Shown: one piece after another, positions 13,994-36,485 of the stretch
Position numbering within the stretch: position 1 is the first letter of the stretch
Layout: each line of letters begins with the position of its first letter
NCBI GenBank assembly: GCA_000934665.2
Contig: KZ538207.1
Span: 1 to 64,000 of the forward strand
Length of the DNA stretch: 64,000 nt
Source of the DNA: Catajapyx aquilonaris
Taxonomy: Eukaryota
Direction of reading: 5' to 3'
The notes under the pieces: generated by a model
Told to the model about the DNA's origin: nothing
Seen by the model: the letters and a program-made list of their open reading frames with translations, nothing else
Database searches by the model: none
Program-made: the position numbers and the translations under genes

Positions 13994-16900
13994 CTACCGG
14001 AAAGCCTTTGCGGCCCTGAATACCTTCTGCATCTTGTAAAACGACTCAGCGAAATCGCTCATGCGCTTCATGAGATGTTCGCTAACAACAAAGTCCGGGT
14101 ACCAATCATGGAGGATTTTGCCGACTCGGGAATTGAAGCCAGGTTCAAGTCGGGTCAGTGCTTCAACTGCCGCTTCCTGAACACATCGTGGAACGACTGA
14201 AAAAAAAAAGTGAAACAAACTGTGAGAAAAAAATCGCCAGAGTCCACAGAATTTAACAAATATTTGTTCATGTGTGTACATGAATGTAGAGCAGGCTAAA
14301 CTTCTTATTAAACTGCTATCATAACTCTCTGAAACAGTTCTGGCAGTGCCTGCCACAAAAAGCTCAAACAATAATTAATCAGATATACATGCATATCAGC
14401 CTAACCTAATCCAGTTGAATCCGGATATGACAGACGGTCTGTTATAGCCGAATACGAAGTATGACGGGGCCGGCCATTCGAGTCTGTTATATCCGGAGCC
14501 AACTGTATCATGAAATAAATATATCCCAAATCTCCTTCAGTGCCGTCCTAAATCCCTCAAGCAAAAACACCTTTGTCAAAAAAATATCTAGATACTCATT
14601 ACTTACTGGCGGCGTTAATAGGACGCAAAAAATCATTGATAGGCTGCAGTAATTGATTTGCAAATGCAGGCTTCTTCTTGCGTGAAAAGCTTGTCACGAG
14701 TCCTGCAAAGAGATTAACCATCAATGATATGTTTTCCAATGACATTGTGGCGTAACTCACTCAAAGCCTTGAGCACCCCGCAGACACTCCGATTGTCTTT
14801 CGTTGACCCAATTTGCAGGTAAGGAGCAAAAGCACCTTCCAACAGTTCGCTCTGGACCCATTTCCATTTCATTACACGAGCCAGCAGAACTATTCCATAG
14901 CCCGCCCTCTCTATCTTCTTCCTGTCACCATCTAGAAAAAAAGTTCAGAAATAATTAAATGTGCAAATCAACTTGTGCCAAATCTATTTGTTCCCATGAA
15001 CTTACTGGTCAAATCGTGCATCAATTTTTCCATCAACGATGCATCGGTGTAATCATCTGCAGAGTAACCACGGCTCTTCAGGTACTCGCACATCTTATCT
15101 TGAAAGTGTCCTTTCATTTCACGAGAGAAAACTGCATAGGCCATGGTGTGAAAGAGCGTCTCGTGATCTAATGAAGAATCGGAGCACAAAAAATTAGATA
15201 CCGGTATTGCTTGATACTTTCCTAATCATTCAATGATTACAAGTCCTTATGAGCTTTCTTGCCCTTAACAAGCCTTTTTTTAATACTCCAATAAGATGTA
15301 TAACAAATTTGAGTACCTCCTTCCTCTCCCTTTTTGGGCCACAGCTCTGGCCATGTCTGGACTATCCCAAAAACGGGAGAACATGCTCTCCTCAGCCCAT
15401 GGAGAATAGCATCGAAACAGAAGTCCCTGGCCCGATTGAGATTCTTGTGATCCTTGCATAGCACTCCAGCCAGATGGCCTGCACGCCTTATCTCCCCTTC
15501 CTGGCAGTGTGACATCTTATTGGTAAAGCCCGCCACATAGTTGCAGAGCTCATCCAAGAGGTCATCAACTAAGGTGACGTAAGTGCGTCCCTCTCGTTCA
15601 AGCAGCTTGGCCACAAATGATGACAAGAAAGTGTTGAGTGGAGGGTCGATTGGCAAGTCACGCTCAGTGATGGTGATGTCTTTTGATAGCATTTCCACGA
15701 ACGCTCTATGTGACAAGAAAATTAAAATATGTTAGCAACAACAATAATCAACACCTCATAAAGTGTGGGCCTGTAATAAGTAACATGTTCTTTAGAAAGT
15801 GAAATTGCTTATCTCTGAAACAGGGCAAATAAATCAGCATTTTCTGGATTAAATTAATACAACAAGAAATTTTTGCCTCTGCCTGAATCATTACTCATTT
15901 TTTTACTTAACCTTCGCTTTCACATCTACGGCAAAGTAATACAGGATCACTTGAGGTGGTTGTGTACTACAACCTTCCAATTTATGGAAGTCCAGCCGAA
16001 CATTTTGTGGGCTGTTACCACATACATTAAGTCCAAACTTCCAGAAAAGCATGTGACGGCTTGTTGTTCATTAGAAAATTACACTCGGAAATCCCTCCGC
16101 CTCACAATGACATAGAGGAGCATCCAAATGCTTCTCTCTTTCTCTCCAAAAATGACAGAATGTTTTGAAGTTTTTAGCGAACACATTTGCAAACACCTAA
16201 GTGAACATGCACAATGACTAACTTGAATATGACAACATAACTCACTTTGCTACGGCAACAGAATTCGGGAATTTTGCATTGTAATGCATCCTTCCGATTA
16301 AGCCCCAAATGCTGGACTCGGTGTAGTCTGGCACATCTTCCATGATCCTCTGCATTTCCTTGCACTCTTCGACTGCGGATAGCAAAATTTTACTTCAAAA
16401 GATGTATAAAAATTATTTTAAAAATACATTACGCTGGTAAACTTTTAATAGAAGCAGTGGAACTTCTACAACGATACTTTTTTAACCAACCAATTCCATA
16501 ATAGTTTCTTCAATTAATAAAGAAGTTAACACTTAGAGATGTTTCAGTTGTGCAAGTTCCACTGCATAATCACTGTAACTTCTCTATCGGCTTCTAGTAA
16601 TTTTAGATTCATTAGGTACATGCAAAAATCTTCCTAGATAAAGCGATTAGGCAGTAGATTTATTTCTTGTTTAACGTCAACTTGCTAAATGACCAAACTT
16701 TTTCTTCAAGCAAAAAGCACTAATGTTGGAGCAGCCTGGAGGGTTGCAACACAAAAAAACAAAAATTATGAAGACTCACAAATACGAGTTTTCTCCACCA
16801 ACAATTCCTTCCTTCTCCTTTCAGCGTCCCTCTTAATCTGTGCAAACACGCAGACTTTTTTCTTTGTGGCCCGCGTTGTATTCAGGCGAAGAGTTGCTGC

Positions 16901-19900
16901 TCCTGGATTTGGAAGTTGTCCGCTGGCTGTTCCTTGATGTGGAGATGTCCCATTAGAGCTTCCGAGGGTAGAAGATATTCCACTTGGTGCCAATGACGGT
17001 CCAGGAACTGCTGCTTCTGGATTTGGAAGTTGTCCACTGGCTGTTTTTTGATGTGGAGATGCCCCGCGAGAGGTTCCGAGGGAAGAAGATATTCCACTTG
17101 GTGCCAATGACGGCTGGGGTGGATTTGGCAGTGGAGTTGTTTCTAGTTGTGTAGTAGGACCCTCTTCCTCCTTCACAGGCATCATTGACTGTGCATCCTT
17201 TTGTATTAACGGCATCAGGTTTGGTCCAATAAGTGGAATCGTTGAAAAATTTCTGCTCTGTTTCCATCTTGGGAACCACCCCTGATCATTTCCTTGAGGC
17301 GAAGGTGTTCCATTTGTCCAAGGTTTTACTACAGATGCTCTACCACCTCCCACCAGCATTCTCATTGGTAGCATTTGCCCTGGCCCTGTAATCATTGGCG
17401 AGGGTGCTCCTAATTGTTTCACCGGAATCCTCACCCCCCTCGCCAGACCTGGCCTTGTAACGGGCTTGTTCAACATTGAAGTACTTGGCCCCCGCAGTTT
17501 TGATATGTCCTGCCGAGTCTTTGTTTGGGAACCAGACCTAAACATAGCAAATGTCTCGGAACATCGCCATTGGGCTGCAGGAGGTACTTCGGCAGTGGAG
17601 GCCACAGAAGGTCCTCCTGGCTGGTCCATACGTTTTGCTTGCATGCAAGACCTGCCGTTAGTTTCAGCTCCTCCTTCAGCATATTTTGAAGCTGCTTGTG
17701 ACTGGGTATGTGCCTTCCTGTTAGGTAATTGATGACACCCTTGCCCCAGTGCAGCAAAATTGTCAATTGTACCGAACTGTGGCTGGAACAGAGACCTTGC
17801 TTCTAAGGACTTGGTTGGTATGCTGTGACTTAGTGATGGTAAAATAGGTGATGGTGACGGCACTGGCACATATAAGAAAGGTTGCTTGCCATTCACTGCT
17901 TTTTCAGGTAACTGCTGTGATGGTGGTGACAATGCTGAAATGTCCTCTATTTTGCATGCAGGTGACCCTGGTGATGTTGGTGACAATCCTGAAGTGTCAC
18001 GTATTTCTCGTCCAGGTGACCCTGGTGACAGTGGTGACAACTCTAAAGTGTCCTGTATTCCTGGTCCAGGTGACCCTGGTGATGGTGGTGACACAATTGA
18101 AGTGTCACTCTTACAGGGTGAACTCTTCCACCTTGAACACAAGGGCTCGTCATCACTCCCTTCACCGAAGAGATCGTCCCTCGCAGTTCGTACCGATGAC
18201 TTCAGTGACACTACAGAACTGTCATTCATTACAGGTGCTGCTTTGGTCTTGAACCTCTTTACCCCTACATGTTCATCATCACTTTCATTACCAAAAAGGT
18301 CTTTGCTATGAAGTCGGCCCTTGCGCTTTCCTCGTTTCATTTTTAAGACTTTGGTGACCCTCGAAGGTAAAGCAATCCCCTCAGATTCTGGCAAATCTGC
18401 CACATCGTTCAGAGTTTCTGATTGATAGGATTCGGTTACATTTTCCAAACAAATTGATTTATCTGACAAGGGCAATTTTGACAACAAAGTCCCATTGCCA
18501 AAGATTAAGCCAGTTGACTTCCTTTGTACAGGTGACATTACCATTTTGTAGGAATCACTGCATTCCACTGGCAAGTTTACCGATACTTCCAGTGAATTCC
18601 TTGCATCCTTACAGACGGCATATTCTGGTGATTCTGGAGCCAGTGCACTGTTACTAAGGTTATGTGCAACCAGTGGTTTGACTGGTTCTGGCGACAATGG
18701 TGATTCTTCTGGTTCTGGCGACAATGGCGATTCTTCTGGTTCTGGCGACAATGGCAATTCTTCTGGTTCTGGCGACATTGGCGATTCTTCTGGTTCTGGC
18801 GACATTGGTGATTCCTCTGGTAACTGGGGTGACATTGCTCGTTGTCCTTCATCTATTACCAACTGGCTTTCTTCGGAATCGGAGTTACTAGCCAGGTCCA
18901 TCTCAGAGTTTGCAGGCTGATGTCCATATTTGACCGTGGATGGAATGACAGGCCCTGGTGAGTGAAGCTCAGGTGGAGGTGAAGTTGAAACCCTTTGCTG
19001 CGTCAGTTTCTGAAGATCATCTAGGCGTTCTGATGGCGACATTGGCAATTCTTCTGGTGCTGGCGACATTGGCGATTCTTCTGGTTCTGGTGACATTGGC
19101 GATTCTTCTGGTAACCAGGGTGGCATTGCTCGTTGTCCTTCATCAATTACGAACTGGCTTTCTTTGGAGTCGGAGTTGCTAGCTAGGTCCATCTTGGAGT
19201 TTTCAGGCTGATGTCCAGATTTGACCACGGATGGAATGACAGGCTCTGGTGAGTGAAGCTCAGGTGGAGGTGAAGTTGAAACCCTTTGCTGCGTCAGTTT
19301 CTGAAGATCATCTAGGCGTTCTGATGGCGACATTGGCGATTCTTCTGGTTCTGGTGACATTGGCGATTCTTCTGGTAACCAGGGTGGCATTGCTCGTTGT
19401 CCTTCATCAATTACGATGCTAGCTAGGTCCATCGCGGAGTTTTCAGGCTGATGTCCAGAATTGACCGCAGATGGAATGACAGGCTCTGGCGCAGGTGAAG
19501 TTGAAACCCTTTGCTGCGTCAGTTTCTGATCATCATCTAGGCTTTCTGATGGATACAGATCATCTCCTGCAGTTTCAATTTCACATAGTGACTCCGACAC
19601 TCCCTCACATTGATTCAATGCATACTTGGGGCCATTCAGGTAAACATTTGGAGGAGTCACATCTAGTTTCTCAAAATCAGTATGATTAGGCATTTTCTCG
19701 CTGCTCTGCTGAGATTGGGATGTAAAATTTTCCTGAGGAACATGCAGGCTTTTTCTCGTCTTGAGAGTAGAAATAGGAATGAGACTTCTCCTGCAAACAC
19801 GCTTAGGTGAGACCTCTCCTATCTCAGCTGTTTCCTGACTAGCATGTTTCTTGGCGTGTTTCTTCAAGACAACCTCTGGAACTACTGAATGCAGATTTAA

Positions 19901-22900
19901 AACTGGCAGATTTGAATTACATTCTGTTTGCAACTGGAGTTCTTCTGCAGCTGCAACCTGAGTCTCCTCTGAGCTTGTCATCAAATGCTCTACCAGATCC
20001 TGCTCAATCGTCTCACTTTGGAGAGACTCAAAATCTACTGGCTCCTCATCTCGGTTGTGAACTGGTGTGTGTTCTTCAAGTACCTTCTGAAGCAGCTGTA
20101 TTTCATGATGCGCCAGATGATCATTCTGCGTCTGAACAGGTTTCTCACCTCCATTGCGAATTTGCTCATTTCCTTTAGTGCTCTCCTGAGCTGGCTCCTT
20201 CTGGTGATGTTCAGAAGGTTCAGGTTGCTGTGTGTGCTCTGAATCCACAGGAACTAAATCTGAATCCACAGGATCTAAATCATCCCCGCATTCTCGATTT
20301 TTGGTCACTTTCTGGATGAGAATCATGTCATTCAGGAAAGTACAGGCATTGTGCTTTGATTTACCATTGTCTTCAGACACTAATAAATGCAGATTATCAT
20401 CATGGAAGAACTGTCTAGAAGGGACGCCATCCACACAACTACCATCAGCTGCAGAATCCAGGGATTCTTCTTCACTACTATCCGCAGAATAAGGCACTGT
20501 ATGGATTGGTGGATCAGCTCCATCAATTACGAGGTCCACAGGTGTACTGGCAGTGAAGTCCGTGTTACTTCTAGCCTGGAGCCCGCACTCACTTGATTGC
20601 ATCCCCATGATTTCAGAAGTTCGACACATCTCAACAACAGCTTGATCAACCCCATCAGTCACCAAAAATGTAGATGTAACTGTCTCTGTGGCCGCAATAT
20701 CGCATTCAATCCATTGCAACTCTGGTACGTCTTCTAAGTCAGACACGTCTGATTCAGATGAAGACAGTCCAGGGTCTCCTAAAACCCCACTTGCTAAGTT
20801 AGGTTCGTTGTTTTCTACCAACTGTGGTGCATCAACTGGGCTGGACTCTTGCGAATTACTATCAGCCACTGGTTCTGACTCATCAATTGGTGAATGCCTC
20901 CGAGGCGACCCTTGTGGTTCAGATGTGGCTTCACCTTGCTTCGTATGATCACCATTAAGTAAATCCCTCACAACAGGAATGCCACGGGCTTCATTATTAT
21001 CATTCCCCTCAGGACTACCCGGAGCTGACACAACTGGCTCAGGCACAGGTGAAAAAATGTCGTCCGGAAGGGTTTCATCTCTAGGCAGTGCCCCAGGCGG
21101 GCCAATCAGGTTTTCTAGACCTTGCGCATTTTCCTCCAAATCATAAGGGATGTGACGCTGACTTTCTAACTGTAATTCAGGACCAGAAGACATCTCGGGT
21201 AATTCCATATGTACATCAGATTCAGAGATCTGCTCCGTTCTTGAAGTTGCAGTCTGTAATTCACCCAGTTCTTGCACTGACGGCTCTACTTCAAAATTGT
21301 CTAAGTCTTGCGATGATTGTGGTGATGAATCACTTTCAGGTAGTGGGCTTACCATCTCCATGCATCTGACAAAATCGTCCATGCATTTAGGAATTCCCTC
21401 ATCCCAAAGGGAGTCTGCAGAGATAAATGAAATGGTGTGGATTTGTTCATCGCATTGTTCAAATTACTTGCTAATGTATCACTTACCCTCGTCATCGTCA
21501 CATCCATATCCTTGATGACATAACACAGGCATGTTTGAAACGCAGCCATTGTCAATACTAAACTCAAATGTCGGCATGCTCTTTAAGTTCTCAGGTACCA
21601 AAGTAGTTTCTGATGGTGTTGCAGGACCTGTGAACAATGCAATGATTAGAGAAAGCAACACACTACACATGCAATAGAAATGGTTTGTATCTTGAAGCCT
21701 AAACAGCATTTAATGCTCAAAGGATAGAAATACCGAACCCCTAACACTTACTAGCTTTCTTGTCAGAAGGGCAAATACTCGCCACACGGCTGTCTCTTTG
21801 AACATTCGTTTCCAGAGCACCAGTTTTCGGTGCTGTAGTTTTTGGCACTGTAGATGTTGACTCTAAAAAATGATATGTAATTAACTTACATTTAATGCAT
21901 GCAGCAGTCATTAACAAATACTTTGATTTCCATTTTAATGCATCATTATTTTTAATTAAATAATTTGACAAGGTAAATTCACAATGTTGTCATAAGGGAG
22001 TTCAATAATTCTGCTCATTGAGCAAAGGGAGAAAGTGCAATACTCAAAAGTTTGCAAAATAAATGCAATTAAAAAATACTAAGTGGTCCATGAGCAATAT
22101 TGGCAGTTTGAGTCTTGGTGGGAAACCCTTTTTCCTCTTTCCCTCTTTACAAAGCAGAATAATTATGGTCCTTAGGTAAATTATTCGCAACTCACATGGA
22201 ATTATACATTTTGCCTATTTATTTCCCCTTATGAATTTGCAAAAATACATTGTTCACTTCAAACGTGACGAACAATTTGAAATTTTTTGTGGATGTTAAC
22301 GAGGTATGTTTTCCTCTTACTGAGCTACAAAACCCCTGTCAATGTCCGCAACACTTGTTGGTCATGAGCCACTTGGGATTTTTCAACTGCATTTATCTCA
22401 CCAACTTTTGAGTATCGTACTTTTTCTCTGTACTAAAGTCTTAAAAGGAACACGTGATGCATGCACACAGCAACATAAAATATAATCTAGGTAAAACAGA
22501 CTCTTCTGCTACATAAACTACATAAACACTACCTAGAAACCCCTAGAATAAATACCTTCATCACTAGAGTCGCTGAGATTTTCAACCGGAACGATACTGT
22601 TTTCCATGTCTGCATCGTTATCAACAGGTGAAGCATGAACATGTCCTGTAATAAATTAACCGTTATAAAGAGTCACACCAAGGCCTACAGCTCAAGCAAT
22701 CATGAGAAAACTAAAAAGGTTGCTGATTCGATTCCAAATGGCACAAAAATTTAAACCCCGCCAGTATCTTTTTTTTAAAAAAAAAACAACAACTAGGTAA
22801 TCGCTGTGCCACCAGAATAAAACAGCAAACGTGTAATATGAGCCTATCCCAAATATGCAGTGTATTCTAATTTAGTTGTCTACTGTGGTCAGCAAATTTT

Positions 22901-25900
22901 TTGTGCCGAGTTGCGTCATTTTAAACGGCTACTTTGGAACATGTGCTTTTAAAGGACATTAAATATTATGTAAAATAGGTGAAACCTTTCCCACTACTGC
23001 AGCCAAGGGGGTAGTCACTTCGGAGAGCCGATGTACACCCTCACTGGTGAGCCGACGAGAGCAGCGGAGAGCCTGGGCAAAACGTGCTTTCGTTCCTCAT
23101 CATCCCTCATCATATGACGTAGTTTGCCTTTGGCGGCCTCCTCTGCCCACCCCAGCTGCTCTCCTCGGCTCTCTGCTGCTCTCCGCAAACCCACCCCGGC
23201 TCTCCTCGGCTCTCTTGGCTAACCAACTTGCTGATCAGTGAGTATACACCGGCTCACCCATGGTCTTACTGGCTCACCGATACCGCAGAGCCAGGGAGAG
23301 CCGAGGAGAACTGAGGAGAGTCGCAATTCAAGAGAGCCGATGTACACTTTTTTGAAGAGTGACTACCCCATTGATGGTGGCAGTGTCTGCACTTGAAAAA
23401 ACATGTCAAACCACTGACATCAGGTGCCAGTGGATCAATTTTGGTAACTTACAAAGTTGTCAGATAAAATAATTCATCACAATTGAGGAACTGTTCAATT
23501 TAACTAAATACTGCCTGATACTGTCATAACCAATGGCGGTAACCTTTTGAATGTACAGACATTCTTAGTGGAAAAAAATTGCTGACCAATAAGCATTTCA
23601 ATTGGAAGGCATTATGTTTTCCACTGGCATTAATATAAATACCTTCACGACAAGCAGGTTCAGAACCTGTCTCTGCTTGAATGCCTTTATCAGAACAACT
23701 TTCAGCCTCTTCATTTTGGGTAGCAGCAGCAGTGTTTGCAACTTGAATAGCTGTAATAAAGTTCGATATAAGTTTAATAAGGAACTTTGGTCAAATTTAG
23801 ACAATTGTAGTTGGAATATGAAGTGAGTCTCAAATGTACGCTTACTTCAATCTCACTGTCACATGCCAAACATTTGGAAAGTCGATAATCACTACTGATT
23901 TGCCCACTTCAGCTAACTAATCTTAAACTCTGACTCGGCACAATATTTTCCTACTTGGAGTGACCTGGCTCATGAGATAACCATGTATGCCCTTAGAAGT
24001 CTCAGCCTGAATAACTATCGATTCGAACAACCACTCATCTCTCTCCAGAAAATTAGGGAACAAAATTAACATTCCCCAGTTTTTCGGCAATCCTTCAGAT
24101 GGGTTTTTGAACAGGCATCTGGATCCAGAGCGGATTAGGGAACCCAGCTGTTACTTCAGCTCTACCCAAGTTCTGGATGGCATAATTATTCTGATCATTT
24201 ATTGACCTTAAAGCAATGGCAACAAAGTAATTTTCAGAGAACATTCCTGATTACCTTCATTACCTGACTTCTGTTCCTCGGAGTCATCACCAATGGTGCT
24301 GCATTGTGCTGATAGTGTATCAGTGTCTTGAAGTGTGCCAGGAGCCGAACCACATGGAGAAGAGTTCATCAGCCGCTGGCTGCGTTCCAACCAATATTCC
24401 TCTCCTATTTTTCGTAGAATTGGCAGGAGGCAGTTCAGAAAAAGACAATAACCAAGTAATTAAAGTGGAGAAAGTGAATTTAAGTGCCACTAAAATAAAA
24501 CGTACGTAAAACAAAATATTACATGGAGTATAATTAGTCATTCATCTGACCACTGGCAAATTTGACCATTTCCAGAACTGCATAATTTCAGGATTTCCGG
24601 TAGGTACTGCTTGGCCAATAAAATGTTGTAAGCACTTTCCATAATATTCATTCCATAATATTCAACATAGTCACATGATGACGCTAATTTTTGGTTTCCA
24701 CCACACACAAACATACTTTAGTGACTTTAGTGGGGGTTTAACGTTGGCCTATTTCTGCCTCTAAGGCTCAACACTGACGCCAGGGAATCCTGGAAATTTG
24801 GCCACTCTGGGGATCTTTAATGTGCACTCACGCAATGTCACAAGCACACAGGACCGACAGCTTTACTTCCCCTCCGAAGGAAGGCACACTCTCATTTTTC
24901 TACCGCCCGGAGAAAAGTCACCGACCTCGGGAACACAAACATACTGTCGATTATACCATCTTTTGAACTTTGGCTATAGATTTTCTAATCAAATGCAACC
25001 ATTTTTGATCAATGAGGAGGATGTGAGCTGAATACAATATTTCCAGAAGACAAACGTGGAAAAGTTTGTGAAGATCCAACAATCGTGCAAATCTTACCTG
25101 GATCCCAGTCTATGGATTCATGTGATGATGGAGGTGTCACTATACATGGTGGTTTGGCTTCACTCACAATCCCTCCAGACGTTTTCCTGATCATGGACTT
25201 AAGCTGAGTTCTAAGGGAGCTGCGTGACTCCTCGAGCGTGACTACTTTAGCTCGCCATCTTTCGATTTCAGCTTTCGATTTCCTCACCTCCTCTGCGGGC
25301 AGAGAGCATGAAAAGGAAAAAAAAGTTAATGATGCACACTACTAATTTATGTTACCCATCTGCAATACATATTCCTTTAACAGGTGCCATGCTTTTTATC
25401 CTATTCAATTTATTTATAACTAACATATAGGGAGTGACTCCACTCACATTTGATACCCACAGTTTCATGTTTTGGAAATTCAAGTTAAATATTTAATTAC
25501 TTTCAGACACTTTTATTCAACATTTTACAACTTAGTGGCATTCTAAGGCTGAATAGCTTACAGATCAACCATCTATGGTATAACTTACAGTGTATTTACA
25601 AATTTGTGCACACGTTTTCGTTGGAAAGTACGAGATTTGTCTTCGGCGCATAAAAATATATCTTAGTAGATAAAAATTTTAAAGATTTATTCATGTTAGG
25701 CCCCTTACTCTCCAGTTCCTTTTCCTTCGCTGTGCTCGTTTTCTGATACTCAGCTAATCTCTGCTCGTATTTCTGCTTTATGCAAAACAACTCGGCTACT
25801 TTGTCATTAAGTTCCGCCTGCATTTTTTGCAGCACTTCTTCATACCGTTTTGTCACCTGCAGGAGAAAAAGAATTCCATTAGCTACTGAAATAATTAGAT

Positions 25901-28900
25901 TACAAAGTGCTGAAATATATTTGTCCTGCAATAAGAAGTTAGTTGAATTTTAGTAAATCCACTGTCTTACAATATCTATTACCTTGCTCTCCTCTTCCAG
26001 GGCCTTCTGGGAGACTTCATACCTTGTCTTCATTATGTTGTACAATTCCATATTCCGTTCTGCTTTAATGATGTGTGACTCGATGATCTTTTTAACATCA
26101 CTTTCCATTTTCGGGCTAAAAATAAAGTTACTCGCTTCCCTGTGAAACAACACATGGTTTTAGAGAAGCACAACCATTAAGAGTAAAATATTTTAAACAG
26201 ACACTGATTCTCACTTGGATAATTTTGCAGCTCCTCTTAGTAACTTTAGCTGCGTACGTTTAATAATCACGCAATCCTCTTTGCAGATCTGAAAGAAAAT
26301 AAATAAGTCAGACCACTTGGACAGAAAACATGTCTTCCACCATCCATTCATGAGTTCTGCTAAATAAACTGATGGAAGAGAATTTACTCGAGACCATGAG
26401 CAGGCCTCATTGTCCTAGTGTCACGTAGTGATGTTAAGGTATGCACATTACAATAGTGACAGTCTTCAAGTGCATATCTGAGTATCTCCTGTGTTTAGGT
26501 CTATGTCTGAGATAATTACAAATGAAATCCCATGTCACTGCTCTCGGGATTGGTTTGAACATTTGTAAGTGAGGGAGAGGGTAAGGACAAGAGGTGGGAT
26601 AGATCCAACGCCACTTTGGCATTGGATCCCCCCGTGAATAACTGAAGCCAACACCGCATGCAACTAATGAACAACAGATTAGTACTTCTACACAAGCAGC
26701 ATGCAAAATGTGAGTAATTCCCAACACTTGACTTTCCATAATCGTCGTCGGCAATGCAAAAACCTCGTAACTCGCAATTTGGCCGATATAGAGTTACTCG
26801 TGCAGTTGTGTCCTGAAAAATTGTCCGCATCGACCTGCAAAACCTTGCATTCTCCGGACCAATAAAACTGGGTGTTTAGGTCCCCTCCACCCCTCCGATA
26901 GCCCACCGAGATCGGAGGCAAGACCTTGTATTTCTTTCACCAGCCACAATGGCGGCCGTCCTGTTGATCACGTAGGCTTAAGTAAGGGAGTTACCACACC
27001 TGCACTTATGCTCATGAGTCATGAGGTACTGCACCTCTTCATGACGACAGGATCAAGTATTGTCTGCTGATTGCATCATTATTGTTAGATAACAATAATG
27101 ATGCAATCAGCCCACAAAGAAAACTTAATACTGTATATAGGAGGTTTTGCAAGCCACTCATCTACCGTGTAACAGAACTTTTGCGAGGTTATGAAGGAAC
27201 ATGTTTTTCCTTGTCCTGTAAAACGACATTATCGCGAGATACGAGGTTTTGCATTGCCGACGACGATATACGGTACGTAAGCTACAGACTCCTGCCTCGA
27301 AACAATTAAGGCGCAACGGACATCAAAGTGAGAACCTCTCTTCTCTTTAAGATAGCACAACCATCCAGAGACGCATCAAGCCTCTCACTTCACATGTCCT
27401 CGCAGCCTTAATGACATGTGCAGGTTAGCCCCTACACGTTCACACAAATGCGAAGAACCAAACGACGACCAGGCCTAGGTCTGTGACATCAGACCATTTC
27501 CATCGACAATGTTTTCCGCCCATTTGCAACATCGGCTTTATCAAACTAGCCATTACCAACTCATTGTTACTATACTGTACTCCTGATTATCCATACGGAT
27601 AATCTGAAAATGGTCATCCGAGAATGCACGTCTAGCACCTCCCACTTTTCAAATGCTCCGAGTACCAAGTGAAGCGACCACTATCTCATTACAACCACTC
27701 CACTGCCAAAGGAAATATTACTCAGGTGCTTGTGCTTTTTATTTGTAAATTGATATTGAGATATGATGCACTTTTGTGTGTAATTGTTTTATAAAGTAAC
27801 AACATTCTTTCAAAAACGTCATCATCTGGCAACCTGGAAATTTGAAAAGTGGGAGGTGCTAGATGTGCATTCTCGGAGGGCCGCCACCTATAGATACCAT
27901 AAAAATGAGCTATTCACAGGTTTTTAGTAAACTACTGCATGTTGTTTTACCTAAAGTTTAATGTAATATAACAAAACTTTCCATAGATTTTTAGTTTGTC
28001 ATCTAGAAAAAATCTGTTACATTTCTTTGTTTGCAAGACATACAGTAAAACTTCTATAAGTCGAACTTCCCTAAGTCGAAGTTCTCCATAACTCAAAGTG
28101 CTGGCAGGGCCTGAAGATGGGATATCAATGCATTTTCAGTCTCCCTAAGTCGAAGTTCATGTTGGCGAGGACGGAAAATTTTCTAATTTCCCAGCCGAAG
28201 GGTCGAGAGTAGCCCACATGTACAGAAAGGCTCAATTTCCTGATCTCCGTCTACCAGACGTACCAAAAGAAGTGTTTGACTCGATTGTGACAATTGAATC
28301 CTTGAATCTAAGAGTAGGCAAATGTCCATAACGTGGTTTTTTTTTTTACAAAAAATAAACGAGGAACATTGCAAGTGTGATAGTGACAGTTATTTTTAAG
28401 TTTTGAACACCTTTCGTCGCTGGATATACAGGTAGGCTTCCTTATAGAGTTATGTGCTTAAAAAATTCCAAACTTCTCTAACTCGAATCTTCTATAACTT
28501 GAAGTTTTTCCCCGGTCCCATGGAGATTCGACTTATAGATACTGTATTGGCATTTTTTTGAACTTTTTTTAAATAAATTATTTGACAATGCACGAATAAT
28601 CCGCACCTTGATAATCGGGAGTACAGTGTATTATTATTATCATTATCATTAATAATATTAATATTGTTGTTCTTGTTGCTATTACAGTTGAAACTGGATA
28701 TAACAGACTTCAAGGGATCACAGATAAAAGTCTGTTATAGCCAAATTGCCACTTTTAAATGAATACACAAAATTTTCTGTTTTCCATATGCTGATAATGC
28801 ACACTACTACTGCATACTGATTAATGAAACAATCCACAAAATGCGAAATCAGCTCATCCATAAATTACGCAGGTCCAAAAAAAATCCACAATTTTCTCCT

Positions 28901-29648
28901 GATGTCACCTGCTTGCCGGATGTACCAGAAAATGTATTATTTTGACCTTTTCGTCAAGTGTCAGATCATTGAATGTTGGGAAGATCACTTCCGCTCTATA
29001 CTTTACAGTGCTTTCCTCGCATGGGATAGGAAGCTGAGTAAGCAACAGAAGCTTATTTTCTCATGGAGGGGCCAAGAAATTGTATGTTATAGCCGAGATG
29101 AGGTGAAAATGTGTATGTTATATCAGGACGCTGGGTCACTTGCCCTCCAATGGGGTAAAATAAATAAAAAAAATAAAAAAAAAAATATCAGGACGCAGGG
29201 GCTTATGGAAGTATGGCAGGACCGACCTTTTGATTTGAAACAGATTCAACTGCATTGTTGTTGCTGTTTGAGCAGATGAACATAAAACATCTGTAACGAG
29301 CAATTGTTACCACCAGGTGCAGCGAAACGCTCGACATTTTTGTTGAAGTTTATGAGCGTTCCGCAGCCACTTGACGGACAACAATCCCTCTTTTCGTGGC
29401 TGTTTGGTACCGCAAATGGTGTGAACTTTTGAAATCGGCAATCGAGACACTCTAACCTTGCCGGTAGTGGTCCCAGGTTCAGCTTTGACCCAGGGCAGCC
29501 CCGCTAATGCTTCTGCGAGTCTGCCAACTGGCACGTCTACTATCTTTGCACCAAACACTGCTTTGAGCCGGTCGTACACAACCCCATACTTCTCTGCCTC
29601 CAGGGAGCCGCAAGTGGCCGGATCGGAGACGGGTCCATCAGGGTTCAT
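13994..29648 (-). CDS. ICE1: Little elongation complex subunit 1-like (16 exons, ~2346 aa)
   Basis: Exons 29648-29457, 26288-26215, 26139-25983, 25856-25709, 25292-25098, 24404-24255 (weak acceptor, least certain), 22645-22556, 21862-21752, 21627-21487, 21414-16780, 16372-16246, 15705-15317, 15167-15006, 14931-14761, 14702-14607 and 14196-13994 total 7041 nt in frame. Architecture: N-terminal coiled coil, huge disordered S/P/E-rich middle, helical C-terminus. The C-terminal segments GVLCKDHKNLNRARDFCFD..WPELW, IVLLARVMKWKWV and VPRCVQEAAVEALTRL resemble the ICE1 C-terminal domain as I recall it. Confidence 0.8.
14412..14505. mobile_element. Short Tigger/pogo-like MITE in an ICE1 intron
   Basis: CAGTTG..TCCGGATAT.ACAGAC / GTCTGTTATATCCGGA..CAACTG-TA. 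A related end occurs at ~28685-28742. Confidence 0.55.
16890..17117 (-). repeat. Coding duplication, 2 x ~114 bp (PSLAPSGISS...SGQLPNP)
   Basis: Two ~38-aa copies near the end of the giant ICE1 exon. Confidence 0.8.
17920..18110 (-). repeat. Coding 54-bp tandem repeat (SPxSPGSP... units)
   Basis: SPPSPGSPGPGIQDTLEL / SPLSPGSPGREIRDTSGL / SPTSPGSPACKIEDISAL. Confidence 0.8.
18680..19550 (-). repeat. Hierarchical coding repeat: three 225-290-bp units containing 24-bp SPEPEESP(M/L) subunits
   Basis: The anchor gaagttgaaaccctttgctgcgtcagtttctga occurs at 18981, 19272 and 19497; tctggttctggcgaca(t/a)tggcgattct subunits are nested within. Confidence 0.9.
22992..23385. mobile_element. MITE-like element with internal GAGAGCCGA repeats
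   Basis: Imperfect terminal inverted repeats cact..caagggggtagtcact / agtgactaccccattg..cagtg. Confidence 0.55.
23598..23830 (-). pseudogene. Possible decayed hAT transposase C-terminal (dimerisation) fragment
   Basis: The translation NLYRTLLQ...KMKRLK...RQVLNLL...LMPVE loosely resembles the hAT dimerisation domain; highly degenerate. Confidence 0.25.
24725..24945 (-). mobile_element. SINE-like fragment (Deu/Nin-type core)
   Basis: The minus strand reads CCTTCGGAGGGGAAGTAAAGCTGTCGGTCC...GCACATTAAAGATCCC...ACGTTAAACCCC, resembling the Deu/Nin SINE core and tail (recognised from memory). Confidence 0.45.
26736..27273. mobile_element. Non-autonomous DNA transposon with ~45-bp TIRs
   Basis: atcgtcgtcggcaatgcaaaaacctcgta.ctcgc at 26741 is inverted at ~27230-27267; the right end is tatacgg-TA. 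Confidence 0.65.
27617..27877. mobile_element. MITE with ~37-bp TIRs
   Basis: tccgagaatgcacgtctagcacctcccacttttcaaat / atttgaaaagtgggaggtgctagatgtgcattctcgga. Confidence 0.7.
28043..28544. mobile_element. Tigger/pogo-like MITE
   Basis: TA-CAGTA..CTATAAGTCGAA ... TTCGACTTATAG..TACTG-TA, with internal ctaagtcgaag repeats. Confidence 0.7.
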
Positions 29649-29862: not shown

Positions 29863-31079
29863 GGATGGAACATTAGGGGAACAAGTACGCTGTACGCAGC
29901 AGTATTACGCACATTACAAGTGTAATGCCCTGCAGCAATTTTGACCGCTCGTTGTAATTACTCACAGCACTTGTTACTGGATTTGATATTATATTTGTAG
30001 GTAGGTATAGGTATAGCTAATCACGGTGGTGCTAATGTAGCTGTTATGGATCCGGCGGGTAGCTAGTTTCGCATGTTGGCCGATAGAGGCGCTGCCGGCT
30101 TTAGAATTTTTGCTTGTTCGTTTTTTTTTAAATGTTTTTTTTGTTATTAAGATTAGAGGGAGATTTTTTTTAAATTTTTAATTATTTTATAATCAAAATT
30201 AACATGTGCGGGCTTGTTAGTGTGAATATTTCGTTTGGGCTGTTCCGCCCATTTTGATTGGAAAAATGGCGCCAAGTTCAAACTTAACAATTATTGCAGT
30301 GCAATTGTGGAAAGGTTGCAAAAAATTATTGTTAAAATATTAATTAGGATAACAATTTTCATTTACGGTGCATTTATGTACACAATTAGCTGCACTAATA
30401 TTAGCAACATGTTTTATTACACTATAATTGGATGGAGTTATGCAATAATGAGTCAACCCACATAAGGTGCTTTGAAGGTCATACCCGATACCTGTGAAAT
30501 TAATTCTTTGCAGTCAATTTATGGCAGAAGTATGCAGATTTCGCATGGGTGATTTTAACTGAATGAATTACGATCCCTTGGGTGTCTTTGACATTTTTGT
30601 GGGTTGACAGATTATTGCATAACACCATCCAATTATGGTTAAGAGGCTCCACGATATGGTTACAAACATTTTTAAACTGCCAAGTATTAGGATAACAAAA
30701 TTCTTTATTTACAGTGAATATTTGTACATAATTAGCTTCATGGAAAAAGCATTGCCAGACAAACGTGCGTACAGCCAACTCAATTCAGTATGTAAATTTG
30801 GTGTCATTACGACTAGAATCAATCTCAGGAGACATTCCCAGAGTGCGAAATTTGACCCACTACATTTTTCAGTGTTTATACCCACATCGCTGACATTTGC
30901 CTGCCATTCTGCAGTGTTGCAATGTCATACATAATCTCGGTTTACAGAGAAAGCTGGTAAATAAAGTGCAGATTAGTGAACCCAGCATATTCTGACGTCT
31001 CATCTAATCATCGCAAGTCTCCATGCCTGTGTTTGTAAGAGTTGACTGCTAATGCCTTGTCTGTTGTTCCATACGCATG

Positions 31080-34000
31080 CTACGTGTCGGCATCAGGTGA
31101 CATGGGGCTTAGCATCGCTTGGCATAAAACGTCTTTCTTAATGTATGCGGGAAGACCTAGATCCCACAGGTTACCTGTAAGGATAAACATCATGGTGAGT
31201 TTTTGTTCATTAATTTTTCTTCCTCTCTGTGCACCTTGCAGTTGAGCAAGCTAATCGTGTACAAGTTTGTTCATGTTTTTAAGATATGACTGCCTGGTGG
31301 GACACATGAGGCCGTACTTCCACAGCAAGAATATTCAAATTTCTTAAGTAATGTAATACTCACTGTCATCCGCATCAGATCCAGGCATTACAGTTCCTTC
31401 CGAGTGCTTGACTTCAGTGCACGTTTCTTCATGACTGAATTCAAAGCATGGCATGCTCAAGGCTGCCTCAGGTACCAGAGTGGACTGCGATGACACAATT
31501 GGATCTGCAAAATAACATTATTTTAACATGACATTTATAACCGAGTGTCACTGTAAAATGATTGTGGCATCATTAATTAATTAATTAAATTAATTAATTA
31601 ATGAAAGCCTTTCACATCACATTATGAAAAGTCACAACTGATTTGGATGCATCCTAAAACCCCATGCCGATTTTAATAAACAAAGATTTTAAATCCTTGA
31701 CTTATCATTAATTAATTTTATTGTGAGCCACATGCACTTACCATCTTCATCATCGGAAATGTCAAATATCGACCCAATGTTGCCCTTTTTGATCGATGTT
31801 GGTTGTGGATTCGGTTTTGGAGAAGCGGCCACTAAAATTATGCAATTGGCAATTTTAATTTTACAACTTCGTATTATTTATGTATTATTAATTTCATTAT
31901 GAGCCCCATTCACTTACCATCTTCGTCATCGGAGAGGTCAAATATTGATCCAATATTGTGCTTTTTGACATGTGTTGGTTGCGAATATGGTTTCGGAGTA
32001 GCAGCCGCTAAAAATGTACAATTGAAAATTAGTTGTATCCACCACCCATTCATGAGTTACGCGAAATAAACTTGATTCAAAGCGAGATCATACACCGGTC
32101 TCATTTTCCTGGCTTTAAGCACACTTTTATGTAGTGTTTATTAATTTATACTGAGCCCCTTGTACTTACCATCTTCTTCATTGGAAAGCTCAAATAATGA
32201 CCCAATGTGGCGCTTTTTGACACATGTTGCTTGTGGATCTGATTTTGGAGAAGCAGCCACTAAAAATGCATAATTAAACATTTTATAGTCACTCATCTGG
32301 TTAGTACAAACTTTTAAGAGTCTAGTATATTTATAGTGCACAACACCTTCATTAGAAGCGGCTTCAACTTCAATTGGATCAGGTGTACTTGAACCGCATG
32401 TATTTGCATTAGCTTGTTCAAATTCATTAAAATCTGAAAGAAAAAGTACATGTAACTAATAAGACCTTGAGATTAAACTAGGTCCACTAATAAATTTCAG
32501 TGTGATTAAAATGCTTAAGAAGCTACCATCTCTTACAACAAATATATTGTGTAATTACCGTCATTGAAATCATCATAACTGTCATTCACTTCAATTCTGT
32601 CGTCAGATTCTGCCATATCCTCATCCTTGTTATGTTGGGAAGCCACAGATTCTGCCGCATCCTCATTATGTTGTGAAGCATCATCATCGTCATCTGCAAA
32701 CAATGGGAAGGTAAAAAGGTTAGTCAAGAGTGCCCCAGGTACGCTTTGAGTACTTCAGAAATTGAAAGGATCCAAAAATTTTCTAACTAAACATGAACGC
32801 ATATACCTGTACTCTCACTGTCAGTTGAACATACTTCGATCAAACTGTCACTAGACGAATTGTGCTGATCCTCTACAGCTTTTACAGGTGAAGTCAAATC
32901 AACAGAAGTTCGAGCTGTAACAAAGTACTGGCTATTAGTTCGGAATAACCTCAACCAAGTACCTGCATCGACCTGCACACCAAATGCAATGCAGACATCT
33001 TCATAGTTTCAACGCTGCCCCCAAATACGTGCAAAAAGAAAAATTCACAGCAATTTTATACGTTCTAGCTCTCAATTAGAGCGACCACATTTGAAACACT
33101 GAGTCGTGTTATAGTTACTGTACCCAAATTGCGATATGTCTACAGGCCCCATGTGCAGGTTGAGCATGCAGCTACGCCCTAGTCATCATGACTGGTCATT
33201 TCAGATATTAAAACTCTGAACAGCATGGGTGGTAAGCACTGCAAATGAGACAGATGCACCGCCACATGGTCGGTGCAATAGTCCATCATCACAATGCACA
33301 TTTTTTTTAGCAATTTTATAAAAAAAACCATACATCACCAAGTTCAAATGGAAATTGGCAGTGCACATACTTGGAAGCATCTTTTAATTCAAAAACAAAC
33401 AAAAAAGTGCAGGAAGATCTCACAACTCCCTGCAGCGAAATGTTAAATTTACCATAACGCTGTTCCACATAATTGTATCTGACGAGGTTCCTTCCTGTCG
33501 ATCATGGTCTAGCCGCTGGAACATGCCTGGCTCCCAACGGACGGGAAAGGGGAAACCATGCCCATTGCTATGGCTCAACCACTTTCCAACATCCCCTGTT
33601 TTTTTTTTGGTATTTTTGGGATAGTGCAGGCCAGGCAAAAAAAGAAAAGGAAAAAACAAAATGACATGAGAGAAACATGAATGAAACTCATACCCTAGCT
33701 GAAATAGTAAGGTTTAGTTGAGATGGCAAGTGAAACAACTGGTCCTTCTTAGGCGGACTTACAGCAGGTAGTAGTTTCATGAAGAAATACTGCACAGTTC
33801 ATGAAACATTACGAATAAAGTTGAAAGTTATACTGTACCTGAAAGTTTCACAAGATATAATTATTTTAAGTCTCACCTCGATGACCATCAAATTCAGAAT
33901 TGATTGACGGTGAAGGTGTCCACATGTCCATTAGACAATCTTCTCGTCCAGTACTTCCTGCTAACTTGATCTGTCTCTCCGATTCCACACATTCAGTATA

Positions 34001-35558
34001 CTTTTGGGATGATGCAACTAATTTTTCCAGCTCAGCACACTTTTCTTGCCAAGTACCCACTTCAACTGCAAAATAAAATAAACAATGAGCAATGTTATAA
34101 TTTTCCGCACTTATCCTGTTGTGTTCAATGCACCAGTAACAGAGAACGCCAGATTTTAGAAATATTTTGTCAGATGTTACGCTCTCATACACCGACTGTA
34201 AATGACGACATTGTATGTAATGGACAGCTCAAATAATTAATTTGAAAACGTCCCGATGAGATTTTGCAATATTAACATGTATTAAAACAGACAGAATTCA
34301 GGAAGTAAATAATGACTGGAAAATTATTATTTATTAACACACTTAGGCCGGGTTGCACCGGCTCCCAGAAAATTTATCTGGCTGAAGAAGAGCAAGGATA
34401 GTTCGTTATTCATTGTTGACAGAATTGTTGATAACAAACTATCCTGGCTCTTCTTCGGCCAGATAAATTTTCTGGGAGCCGGTGCAACCCGGCCTTAATT
34501 TGACCCTTTACAAAATTTTGATCCGATTAAACTTAAACTTTGACGCTACTATTTAATGGATAACCTTGAGTATTGCAAGCATGTATCGGATCGAGTCTAA
34601 CTTACTTTGCAGGTGGCCTTCTCTTCTCGACAACCTCCTAACCTGATACTTTAACTTCTTCAACTGCGCTTCGTCCACCTTTACTCCACCGTTTTTCTGC
34701 TTTTCCATGAACAAGGCTGTTTCCAGATCTGCTTTTCTGGAAGCCTCCTGCGTTAACAGTACTCGTTGTTTTTGGACAATCTGCGAATCGAAGTACAAAA
34801 ATTAATTTGCAAGTATAAAGCGAAAAAGTGTCATTGCACACCACACTTGACACCAGTAATTTGATAGGTGAACTTGCACTTGGAATTATTATCCCATTGC
34901 ATTTACTCACACCTTACGATGCAAGCTGACAAGTTCGTTTAAAATTACCTCCTGCGCCTGTTCCGCAGACTTCTTCATCGCCTCAAATCTCTGCATCATT
35001 AACTCATACAATTTTGTACTTTTCAGTGCGGCAGCCTGCAACATCTCCACATTATTTCTCTGAATTTTGTTGATCCTTCGTAGCTCTCTTACGGTCTGAA
35101 CCACCTGACTGTTGAGAGAGAAACATCGTATAAGAAACCGCAAGTAAATTACTACTCTACACAAATGAACCTCACCGATAAGACTTGCAGCGACCCATCA
35201 ACACCCTCAGCAGCTTACGGTCCACGAGCACCCGGTTCTCATCATATGTCTGAAAAAGAATTCAGTCGCTTGGTCATACACAAAATTACACATGCTTTTC
35301 ACGCTCTTATTACATGAGCATCACTAGTCGTAAGAGCGGCGATGTTGCCATGGTATGTTGCTGTTGCCATGGTAACCTCCCCACAGAACAGACTTGGCCT
35401 TTTATATACATGCGATTTTATACCTGCACAGAGTCCCTGGATCCAACGGCAAGCATCGTGACGAACTCCGGGTCTCCGTAGTTGCCGGCACCCTCGGGTT
35501 GGGCCGCGGGCTGGGCCCAGGCTGATAGCTCAGGAGGAGTGGACGAGAGAAGCTCCAT
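31080..35558 (-). CDS. Truncated ICE1-like tandem paralog (13 exons, ~522 aa; coiled coil plus acidic region, no C-terminal domain)
   Basis: Exons 35558-35424, 35249-35176, 35108-34949, 34780-34606, 34065-33877, 32914-32807, 32693-32559, 32433-32347, 32259-32170, 32007-31918, 31831-31742, 31504-31364 and 31174-31080 total 1569 nt in frame, all GT-AG. Homologous exons share phases with ICE1, two have identical sizes (74 and 141 nt), and the peptides align: KLYELMMQRFE/ELYNIMKTRYE, EVGTWQEKCAELEK/EIERWRAKVVTLEE, STLVPEAALSMPCFEFS/TTLVPENLKSMPTFEFS, SNLWDLGLP..C..MLSP/DSLWDEGIP..C..MVSP. Confidence 0.75.
31742..32259 (-). repeat. Triplicated 90-bp exon
   Basis: VAASPKSDPQATCVKKRHIGSLFELSNEED / AAATPKPYSQPTHVKKHNIGSIFDLSDDED / VAASPKPNPQPTSIKKGNIGSIFDISDDED; each is phase 1-1 with similar flanking intron sequence. 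Confidence 0.85.
34346..34494. mobile_element. PIF/Harbinger (Tourist-like) MITE
   Basis: A 149-bp near-perfect palindrome GGCCGGGTTGCACCGGCTCCCAG...CTGGGAGCCGGTGCAACCCGGCC flanked by TTA on both sides. Confidence 0.85.
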
Positions 35559-35818
35559 GCTTAGGGTCATCTCTCGTCTCTCTCTCTCTCTCTCTGTGGG
35601 TCTCTCTCAGTCAAGAAGAACGACGAACGACAACGACATAACGACAGAACGAAGAAGAAACGAAACCCGTGCGAACAACAAAGGACCCAAAAAAAAAAGA
35701 AGATGAAAAAACGCCAAGAAAACGTTTCTTCTGGGGGGGGGGGGGACGAATCGAANGGACGAATCGAACGAAAGCGTAGCTGCTATCCAAAGCGTTTCTA
35801 GGAGCGGCTACTTCCCTG

Positions 35819-35842
35819 GTAACTGTTATCGATAACGGTTAC
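35819..35842. promoter_or_regulatory. DRE (TATCGATA) inside a 24-bp palindrome upstream of the ICE1 paralog
   Basis: GTAACTGTTATCGATAACGGTTAC, with TATCGATA at 35827-35834, ~270 nt upstream of the ATG. Confidence 0.55.
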
Positions 35843-36019
35843 TGCAGGAAAGGATTAAATTAAATAAAAAGGATAAATCAAATGGGTATTAAAACGGATA
35901 TGAAACCCTTGTGCTATACAGACACTACATTCAAATTGCTGCTCCCTTGGCTTGATGCTGTGTATTTTTGTGTATATGGACCTAAAGTTGAAATTATTAC
36001 TTATTTATTTTTTATATTT

Positions 36020-36485
36020 AAATTAGGTATTATGTATTATTATATATTTCATGTATTATTTTACATTTACTGTATAATGTATTTTTATTACATTATTTTA
36101 TATTTACTGCATTACGTATAATTATTTTTATTACATTATGTATTATTTTTATTACATTATGTATTATTTTTATTACATTATGCCTATTATTTTTATATTT
36201 ATTGCATTATGTATAATTATTTTTATTACATTATGTATTTTTATTACATTATGTATTAGTTTTATTACCGTATATTATGTATTATTTTATATTTACTGCA
36301 TTATGTATAATTATTTTTATTACATTATGTATAATTATTTTTGTTACATTATGTATAATTATTTTTGTTACATTATGTATTTTTATTACATTATGTATTA
36401 GTTTTATTACCGTATATTATGTATTAGTTTTATTACCGTATATTATGTATTATTGTTTTTATTGTATTATGTATTATTTTATATT
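36020..36485. repeat. AT-rich minisatellite (ttattacattatgtat(aa)ttatt-type units)
   Basis: Many degenerate ~20-25-bp copies; these explain the spurious Y/I/F/C-rich ORFs here. Confidence 0.85.

What the first reader, a model, noticed from the sequence alone, without database searches (positions are those of the whole stretch)
31080..35558. C-terminally truncated ICE1 paralog in tandem with full-length ICE1: candidate half-scaffold or decoy for the little elongation complex
Seen: an intact 13-exon ORF whose homologous exons match the neighbouring ICE1-like gene in phase, with two identical sizes (74 and 141 nt) and aligned peptides. Its last exon is homologous to the start of ICE1's 4.6-kb exon (SNLWDLGLPAYIKKDVLCQAMLSP vs DSLWDEGIPKCMDDFVRCMEMVSP) but stops after ~31 codons. 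The peptides are strongly diverged, yet no exon has a frameshift or internal stop, and the gene has its own DRE-containing upstream region. Known: ICE1 scaffolds the LEC (ELL, ICE2) for snRNA transcription, and its C-terminal MIF4G-like region has been linked to eIF4AIII and NMD. Inference: an old, retained duplicate that keeps only the coiled-coil half could separate or compete with the LEC and NMD functions.
Basis: partly seen in the sequence, partly recalled or inferred. Interest (0 to 1): 0.7.

Follow-up and report, generated by a model that had tools for sequence, protein, structure and literature searches.

The report
Spliced truncated duplicate of probable ICE1
An old, intact, spliced copy of the front fifth of a neighbouring gene (probably the small-RNA transcription scaffold ICE1) sits just upstream of it, has lost the partner-binding tail and gained three copies of a short new exon, so it may act as a partial adaptor or competitor, though its function is untested.

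Summary
Gene A (minus strand, 35558-31080) has 13 exons, all GT-AG, and a stop-free 522-aa frame. It is homologous to the first ~475 of 2379 residues of the downstream gene B (N-terminus 46/184 identical; 0 of 1000 shuffles score as high). Contigs of one unlabelled run skip 6 of A's 12 introns exactly and read through the stop into a 3' UTR, so A has its own spliced end. Introns no longer align and rough dN/dS is about 0.4, so the copy is old and constrained. Published maps put ICE2 and exon-junction-complex binding in the tail that A lacks; they disagree on whether ELL binds the N-terminus. An ELL- or cap-binding adaptor or titrator is therefore open but unshown. The scan has no earlier ICE1 note, but lists several similar truncated duplicates of other genes in this genome.

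The parts
35819..35842 (.). DRE (35827-35834) inside a 24-bp near-perfect palindrome, about 270 nt upstream of A's ATG; probable promoter element
   Evidence: only exact TATCGATA in the window; palindrome read; function inferred
35424..35558 (-). A exon 1 (45 codons; an in-frame ATG 12 nt upstream is an alternative start); no similarity to B
   Evidence: junction not among listed joints
35176..35249 (-). A exon 2, 74 nt, homologous to B exon 2 (74 nt)
   Evidence: z 4.6, 7 of 2000 shuffles
34949..35108 (-). A exon 3, helical/coiled-coil-like, homologous to B exon 3
   Evidence: z 4.0, 5 of 2000 shuffles; intron 3 skipped in X1
34606..34780 (-). A exon 4, two long predicted helices
   Evidence: AF2 single sequence pLDDT 75; introns 3 and 4 skipped in X1
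33877..34065 (-). A exon 5, end of the helical N-terminal region
   Evidence: part of the 46/184 N-terminal alignment; intron 4 skipped in X1
32347..32914 (-). A exons 6-8 (32914-32807, 32693-32559, 32433-32347): acidic low-complexity linker, not alignable to B
   Evidence: junctions not among listed joints
31742..32259 (-). A exons 9-11 (32259-32170, 32007-31918, 31831-31742): three tandem copies of one 90-nt exon, each ending in a [IL]F[DE][LI]S[DN][DE]ED motif
   Evidence: 68-71 of 87 nt identical pairwise, flanking intron ends also alike; z 18-26; introns 9, 10, 11 skipped in X1
31364..31504 (-). A exon 12, 141 nt, homologous to B exon 10 (141 nt)
   Evidence: z 12.1, 0 of 2000 shuffles; both flanking introns skipped in X1
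31080..31174 (-). A exon 13 coding part, homologous to the start of B's giant exon; ends in TAG
   Evidence: z 10.4, 0 of 2000 shuffles; no donor-like site above 2 bits before the stop
30413..31079 (-). A 3' UTR; AATAAA at 30709-30704 and 30418-30413
   Evidence: spliced X1 contig continues to 30792 with 0 mismatches; signals; true end not shown
13994..29648 (-). Gene B, probable ICE1: 17 exons, 2379 aa; helical N-terminus, 4635-nt exon (21414-16780), about 380-aa helical C-terminal region in 6 small exons
   Evidence: model; introns 2 and 3 skipped in X1; exon 1 (29648-29457) is a guess; ICE1 identity not confirmed

Best explanation
Gene A is a functional, protein-coding, 3'-truncated tandem duplicate of gene B, which is probably ICE1. 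The duplication copied B's 5' exons and the start of its giant exon. A acquired a stop 30 codons into that exon, a 3' UTR and a DRE-type promoter, diverged to about 25% identity, and later triplicated a 90-nt exon (shown: structure, homology, splicing of 6 introns, age; constraint is supported but roughly measured). Most likely mechanism (inferred): A is a 58-kDa acidic, largely disordered adaptor. Its N-terminal helices still engage a partner of the ICE1 N-terminus (ELL by one published map, CBP80 by another). It cannot bind ICE2, ZC3H8 or the exon junction complex, and its three acidic-hydrophobic repeats bind a new partner multivalently. It would redirect or titrate ELL or the cap-binding complex instead of building a normal LEC, and it would not act directly in NMD. 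My odds: real selected protein gene about 0.9; B is ICE1 about 0.85; this adaptor/titrator mechanism overall about 0.4.
For: Intact 522-aa frame with 12 of 12 GT-AG introns. In a substitution-only neutral simulation 9 of 2000 runs stayed intact at 0.05 changes per site and 0 of 2000 at 0.1, while the repeated exons already differ by 18-22%. X1 contigs skip A introns 3, 4, 9, 10, 11 and 12 at exactly the modelled lengths (168, 540, 162, 86, 237, 189), and one 813-nt contig runs through the stop to 30792. No A-versus-B DNA match except one 35-bp interspersed piece; pN 0.43 against pS 0.65 over 121 aligned codons. The retained similarity is confined to the helical N-terminus and the last two exons. 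Domain maps of human ICE1. ELL is shared between LEC and SEC and shifts to SEC when ICE1 is knocked down (PMC13324577, passages), so an ELL-binding fragment could have an effect.
Against: No tool result ties A or B to ICE1. ICE1_C (PF25817.1, 193 positions, held by the genome-search tool) matched none of 20 single-exon peptides at E<=1 nor 11 at E<=10. phmmer of B exon 13 over 1.84 billion representatives gave one spurious hit. One source places ELL binding in the C-terminal half, which A lacks. 25% identity may be too low to keep any interface. The dN/dS blocks were chosen for protein similarity and dS is near saturation. dN/dS among the three repeats is mixed (0.72, 1.06, 0.19). All expression evidence comes from one run whose type is not on record, and 6 of 12 junctions are unseen. 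No ortholog of A was found, so its conservation is unknown.
Confidence: 0.4

Rival explanations
1. A is a real, selected protein that no longer touches LEC partners. It has a new role (for example tissue- or germline-restricted) driven by its diverged coiled coil and the triplicated motif.
For: Only 46/184 identity in the N-terminus and an unalignable middle; new triplicated exon; scan notes list other fast-evolving truncated duplicates in this genome (unchecked).
Against: The best-kept blocks are the ones shared with B, which suggests a shared constraint; a DRE suggests broad, housekeeping-type expression (DRE role recalled).
Confidence: 0.3
2. Plain decoy: A competes with B for both LEC assembly and NMD partners.
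For: 3'-truncated duplicates such as SRGAP2C act antagonistically (PMC6169893, passages); ELL binds the ICE1 N-terminus in one map.
Against: EJC binding needs the C-terminus; ICE2 binds the C-terminal part in both maps; the known antagonistic cases cited are recent human-specific copies, whereas A is about 25% identical to B.
Confidence: 0.1
3. A and B are one gene. A exons 1-12 are an alternative 5' end spliced into B's giant exon, and exon 13 is a minor alternative terminal exon.
For: The A12 donor (phase 1) is frame-compatible with B's phase-1 acceptors, including the giant exon; the genes are head to tail, with about 1.4 kb from A's stop to B's guessed start.
Against: The X1 contig joins A12 to A13 and runs into the UTR; none of the 15 listed joints (of 17) links A to B; there is no usable donor inside A13. 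Contigs drop rare isoforms, so this is not excluded.
Confidence: 0.07
4. A is a transcribed but decaying or nearly neutral duplicate.
For: Strong divergence; two of three repeat comparisons have dN/dS of 0.7-1.1; no homolog found elsewhere.
Against: Intact frame and splice sites are very unlikely under neutrality at the observed divergence; pN is below pS.
Confidence: 0.06
5. B is not ICE1 but another large coiled-coil / disordered / helical-repeat nuclear scaffold, so the LEC and NMD reasoning does not apply.
For: No ICE1_C hit on single exons; Atlas neighbours are generic HEAT/ARM clusters at 0.90 or less; fold searches were unspecific.
Against: Size (2379 aa against 2266 for human ICE1, from the residue ranges) and layout fit. 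The helical C-terminal region fits a MIF4G-like domain. Motifs in B exons 13, 15 and 17 resemble ICE1's C-terminal domain as I recall it (no call). Exon pieces of 31-129 aa can fall under HMMER's filters.
Confidence: 0.13

Closest known systems
ICE1 / KIAA0947, scaffold of the little elongation complex (human 2266 aa; Pfam ICE1_C PF25817)
   Same: B has similar size and layout (helical N-terminus, long Ser/Thr/Pro-rich middle, helical C-terminal domain); A is homologous to B's first ~475 residues.
   Different: A lacks about 80% of B, including the whole C-terminal domain that binds ICE2/ZC3H8 and the EJC in human ICE1, and has a triplicated exon with no counterpart in B. Membership of B itself was not confirmed by tools. 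No ICE1 paralog appeared in the listings of searches.
3'-truncated partial gene duplicates (SRGAP2C, ARHGAP11B; PMC6169893, passages read)
   Same: Keeps 5' exons, lacks 3' exons, is transcribed and ends at a new stop and poly(A) region; may act on the parent's partners.
   Different: Those are recent human-specific copies. A is old (introns no longer align, about 25% protein identity) and remodelled by exon triplication, so simple dominant-negative action is less likely.
TND-interacting motifs (TIMs; PMC9987994, passages read) and phospho-SIM-like motifs (recalled)
   Same: Short hydrophobic core followed by an acidic, Ser-containing run in a disordered region; three copies in A, two loosely similar motifs at B residues 1492 and 1534.
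   Different: No FxGF part; the obligate helix was not tested; Phe in the core departs from the usual SIM pattern (recalled). A's repeats do not align to B's motifs beyond chance (48 of 300 shuffles).

Membership tests
ICE1 (gene B) | C-terminal ICE1_C domain (PF25817) | tested here: inconclusive
   Model exists in the genome-search tool's Pfam; whether hmmscan uses the same copy was not shown. No hit on single C-terminal exons of 31-129 aa. The joined domain was not scanned.
ICE1 (gene B) | Orthology to named ICE1 proteins by sequence | tested here: inconclusive
   No true homolog returned: 1 spurious hit; 0 hits at E<=10; 1 chance bacterial locus.
ICE1 (gene B) | Helical, MIF4G-like C-terminal fold | tested here: inconclusive
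   One exon folded alone: 5 helices, pLDDT 56; Foldseek no match at E<=0.001; best VIA Z 7.1, rmsd 4.8, 97 aligned, generic bundles; Atlas HEAT/ARM-like at 0.90 or less.
ICE1 (gene B) | Large protein with helical N-terminus and long low-complexity middle | tested here: met
   2379 aa; residues 481-1960 are 30% Ser/Thr/Pro. Not specific to ICE1.
ICE1 (gene A) | C-terminal domain binding ICE2/ZC3H8 and the EJC | tested here: not met
   A stops 30 codons into the giant-exon homolog; tblastn of B finds no second copy of the C-terminal exons in the window.
ICE1 (gene A) | Binding to ELL, ICE2 or CBP80; presence at snRNA genes | not testable with these tools
   Needs co-IP or ChIP; the partners' sequences from this organism were not available.
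3'-truncated partial duplicate | 5' exons homologous to the parent, 3' exons absent | tested here: met
3'-truncated partial duplicate | Transcribed, ending at its own stop and 3' UTR | tested here: met
   One run only: spliced contig through the stop to 30792; AATAAA signals downstream.
TND-interacting motif (A exons 9-11) | Obligate short helix plus acidic linker, optional FxGF | tested here: inconclusive
   Acidic run present, FxGF absent; helix and binding not tested.

The most novel reading that the evidence does not exclude
A is a dedicated ELL-binding paralog of ICE1 that forms a third kind of ELL complex, besides LEC and SEC. Its N-terminus holds ELL (or the cap-binding complex) while three tandem acidic motifs dock it on other transcription or SUMO machinery. 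It would separate naturally the ELL-binding and ICE2/EJC-binding halves of ICE1, possibly as part of a parallel set of truncated transcription-factor duplicates in this arthropod lineage.
Probability: 0.12. Interest if true: 0.7.

Novelty: new variant of a known kind. Interest (0 to 1): 0.4.

Why it matters
The two sources read here disagree on whether ELL binds the N- or the C-terminal part of human ICE1. A naturally retained N-terminal-only paralog, with a few blocks kept against a 25% identity background, points to which N-terminal segments matter (the exon 2-3 helices and the short block at the start of the giant exon) and gives a ready-made construct for testing ELL versus CBP80 binding. 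If it binds ELL, it would be a new way to tune the LEC/SEC balance. Otherwise it is one more tidy case of gene birth by partial tandem duplication, which the scan's notes suggest is frequent in this genome.

Tried and rejected
No whole genome is held, so other copies of A or B, and ELL/ICE2/CBP80 paralogs, could not be sought. The RNA-run search listed no RNA holder; 1 run of unrecorded type held 0.27 of the words and was laid on 20000-39500 only. Contig depths (14.4, 3.5, 5.9) were not used to rank genes. Two unspliced X1 pieces lie in A introns 11 and 5 (depth 2.9 and 3.8), either pre-mRNA or DNA. Homolog searches were all empty or spurious: P0003 is a repeat protein matched over 27 residues; word-index searches scored 0 of 248, 1 and 20 candidates at E<=10 and were limited in length (2000 aa in two of them); L001 is a bacterial secA locus matched outside its annotated-looking ORFs, rejected. 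PDB sequence search of B exon 13 gave a best E of 0.45. Atlas and fold searches gave generic helical matches; MIF4G was not listed, which excludes nothing. Complex prediction of A exon 3 with B exon 3 gave no verdict (score 0.04, no alignments). Homology of A's repeats to B's two acidic motifs was not supported. Read-through splicing from inside A exon 13 was rejected for lack of a donor. Smith 2011, Hu 2013 and Takahashi 2015 are not held, so the domain maps are taken second-hand from PMC5493778 and PMC7044329. The alignment figures of PMC5896957 could not be seen and no supplements were opened. Scan look-ups near this place, by relatives and by sequence found nothing; the word ICE1 met no finding.
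Full report
Setting. The window is intron-containing animal DNA of about 42% GC; no whole genome is held. The genes studied lie on the minus strand in this order: an EGF-ligand-like gene (exons about 46.8-41 kb; Pfam EGF E 0.05 on a partial domain), gene A (35558-31080), gene B (about 29648-13994) and a xylose isomerase gene (PDB E 2.5e-41). Earlier scan notes call this genome an arthropod; I did not test that.

Observation. Reading splice sites by hand and checking by script gave a 13-exon model for A: 1569 nt, 522 aa, 12 of 12 introns GT-AG, no internal stop. B has 17 exons and 2379 aa, with a 4635-nt exon; its first exon and the acceptor of exon 6 are guesses. BLASTP links A to B in two blocks (E 1e-10 and 6e-5). 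Against shuffles, A46-245 versus B65-257 gives z 6.9 (0 of 1000; the reversed control 40 of 1000; 46/184 identical) and A445-522 versus B407-490 gives z 21 (0 of 1000). The acidic middle does not align (726 of 1000). Exon pairs A2/B2, A3/B3, A12/B10 and A13/B11 are significant alone; A4/B4 and A5/B5 are not. A ends at about B residue 475, so it keeps a fifth of B, not half.

A exons 9-11 are three copies of one 90-nt exon: 69, 71 and 68 of 87 nt are identical pairwise and the flanking intron ends still align. Each copy ends in [IL]F[DE][LI]S[DN][DE]ED. B has two loosely similar Leu-Phe/acidic motifs at residues 1492 and 1534, inside the part that A lost, but the repeats do not align to B's giant exon beyond chance (48 of 300). 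The motif resembles TND-interacting motifs (helix plus acidic linker, optional FxGF; PMC9987994, passages) and, from recall, phospho-SIMs. Neither was tested.

Expression and independence. The run search listed no RNA holder, only one run of unrecorded type. Laid on 20000-39500, its contigs show 17 joints, of which 15 are listed. Six skip A introns 3, 4, 9, 10, 11 and 12 at exactly the modelled lengths with CT..AC ends, and two skip B introns 2 and 3; the other seven have at least one end in the repeat-rich B intron 1. One 813-nt contig carries exon 12, exon 13, the stop and 288 nt of 3' UTR to 30792 with no mismatch. Exact intron removal in two genes is best read as RNA, though this is one run. 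No listed joint links an A exon to a B exon, and no donor-like site above 2 bits lies inside A's last coding exon. AATAAA signals lie at 30709-30704 and 30418-30413, and the window's only exact DRE lies 270 nt upstream of A's ATG in a 24-bp near-palindrome. The six other junctions of A are unseen.

Age and constraint. blastn finds no A-to-B match except a 35-bp interspersed piece, so the introns have fully diverged. Over four gap-free blocks (121 codons, chosen for protein similarity) pN is 0.43 and pS 0.65, a rough dN/dS of 0.4; the choice of blocks biases this down and dS is near saturation. Among the three repeats the ratios are 0.72, 1.06 and 0.19 on 29 codons each. A substitution-only neutral simulation left frame and splice sites intact in 9 of 2000 runs at 0.05 changes per site and 0 of 2000 at 0.1, while the repeats imply about 0.1 per copy since they arose. 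A long-dead pseudogene is therefore unlikely.

Is B ICE1? Not shown by any tool. Pfam ICE1_C exists in the genome-search tool's library (PF25817.1, 193 positions), yet none of 20 single-exon peptides matched it at E<=1, nor any of 11 at E<=10; HMMER's filters drop weak pieces, and the joined domain was not scanned. phmmer of the longest C-terminal exon over 1.84 billion representatives returned one spurious repeat protein; three word-index searches returned nothing; a metagenome hit was chance. The exon folds into five helices at low confidence with only generic matches. For ICE1 speak the size, the layout, the helical tail, and my recollection (no call) that motifs in B exons 13, 15 and 17 and at the start of the giant exon resemble human ICE1. 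I put it at about 0.85.

Mechanism. Human data, read as passages: the C-terminal ~30 kDa binds eIF4AIII and the EJC, and a construct lacking the C-terminus does not (PMC5896957). Residues 1191-2266 bind ICE2 and ELL and suffice for core LEC, while 1-1190 binds CBP80 in vitro (PMC7044329). A review citing Hu 2013 says instead that ELL binds the N-terminal domain and ICE2 and ZC3H8 the C-terminal one (PMC5493778). ELL is partitioned between LEC and SEC, and ICE1 knockdown shifts it to SEC (PMC13324577). In every map A lacks the ICE2 and EJC sites, so a direct NMD decoy is unlikely. Whether it can hold ELL depends on which map is right and on whether 25% identity keeps the interface. My best reading is an adaptor or titrator that keeps an N-terminal partner (ELL or CBP80) and uses its new repeats for another (0.4). 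Rivals: an unrelated new function (0.3), B not ICE1 (0.13), plain decoy (0.1), alternative 5' end of one gene (0.07), decay (0.06); these are rough and overlap a little.

Comparison and novelty. As a class, 3'-truncated duplicates are well known (PMC6169893, passages). No ICE1 paralog turned up in the listings of three searches (6, 280 with 20 listed, and 4 papers; none of the listed titles or abstracts describes one), but the library lacks most subscription papers. Other papers opened as passages and not relied on: PMC13738406, bioRxiv 2024.01.24.576984, PMC3937775, PMC9133132, PMC6057032. The scan has no earlier ICE1 note, but its unchecked notes describe truncated tandem duplicates of TFIIB, BicC, NACA and TDRD5 and a SAP-less PIAS copy in this genome, which makes A look like one case of a recurring pattern here.

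Verdict. The gene is real, spliced, old and probably under selection. The ICE1 label is probable but unconfirmed and the function is inferred only. New variant of a known kind; interest 0.4.

Noticed in passing
window 46802-36900, minus strand: EGF-ligand-like gene (spitz/Keren-like by recall) with small exons near 46780-46627, 44180-44110, 41750-41640 and 41130-40960; X1 contigs cover 36954-39500 unspliced, probably its long 3' UTR.
   Followed up: partly
window 11930-10170, minus strand: Intron-containing xylose isomerase gene (best PDB match E 2.5e-41); origin and distribution not examined.
   Followed up: partly
window 21414-16780: B's 4635-nt exon holds internal tandem repeats of 21, 27, 54, 114 and 291 nt, including Pro/Glu/Ser-Pro-rich units, and two Leu-Phe-Gly/acidic motifs at B residues 1492 and 1534.
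   Followed up: partly
window 34345-34495: Inverted repeat of about 150 bp (88% self-complementary) in A intron 4, MITE-like; X1 shows variant letters there.
   Followed up: no
window 36030-36480: AT-rich minisatellite just upstream of A's promoter region; 39-bp tandem repeats also at 9336-9821.
   Followed up: no
window 29957-29307, minus strand: 216-codon open frame holding B's guessed first exon; it runs on about 50 codons past the guessed donor at 29457, has no Pfam match, and its junction to B exon 2 was not seen in X1.
   Followed up: partly
window 27700-29100: B intron 1 contains high-depth dispersed repeats in X1 (summed depth up to 183 per bin, many joints).
   Followed up: no
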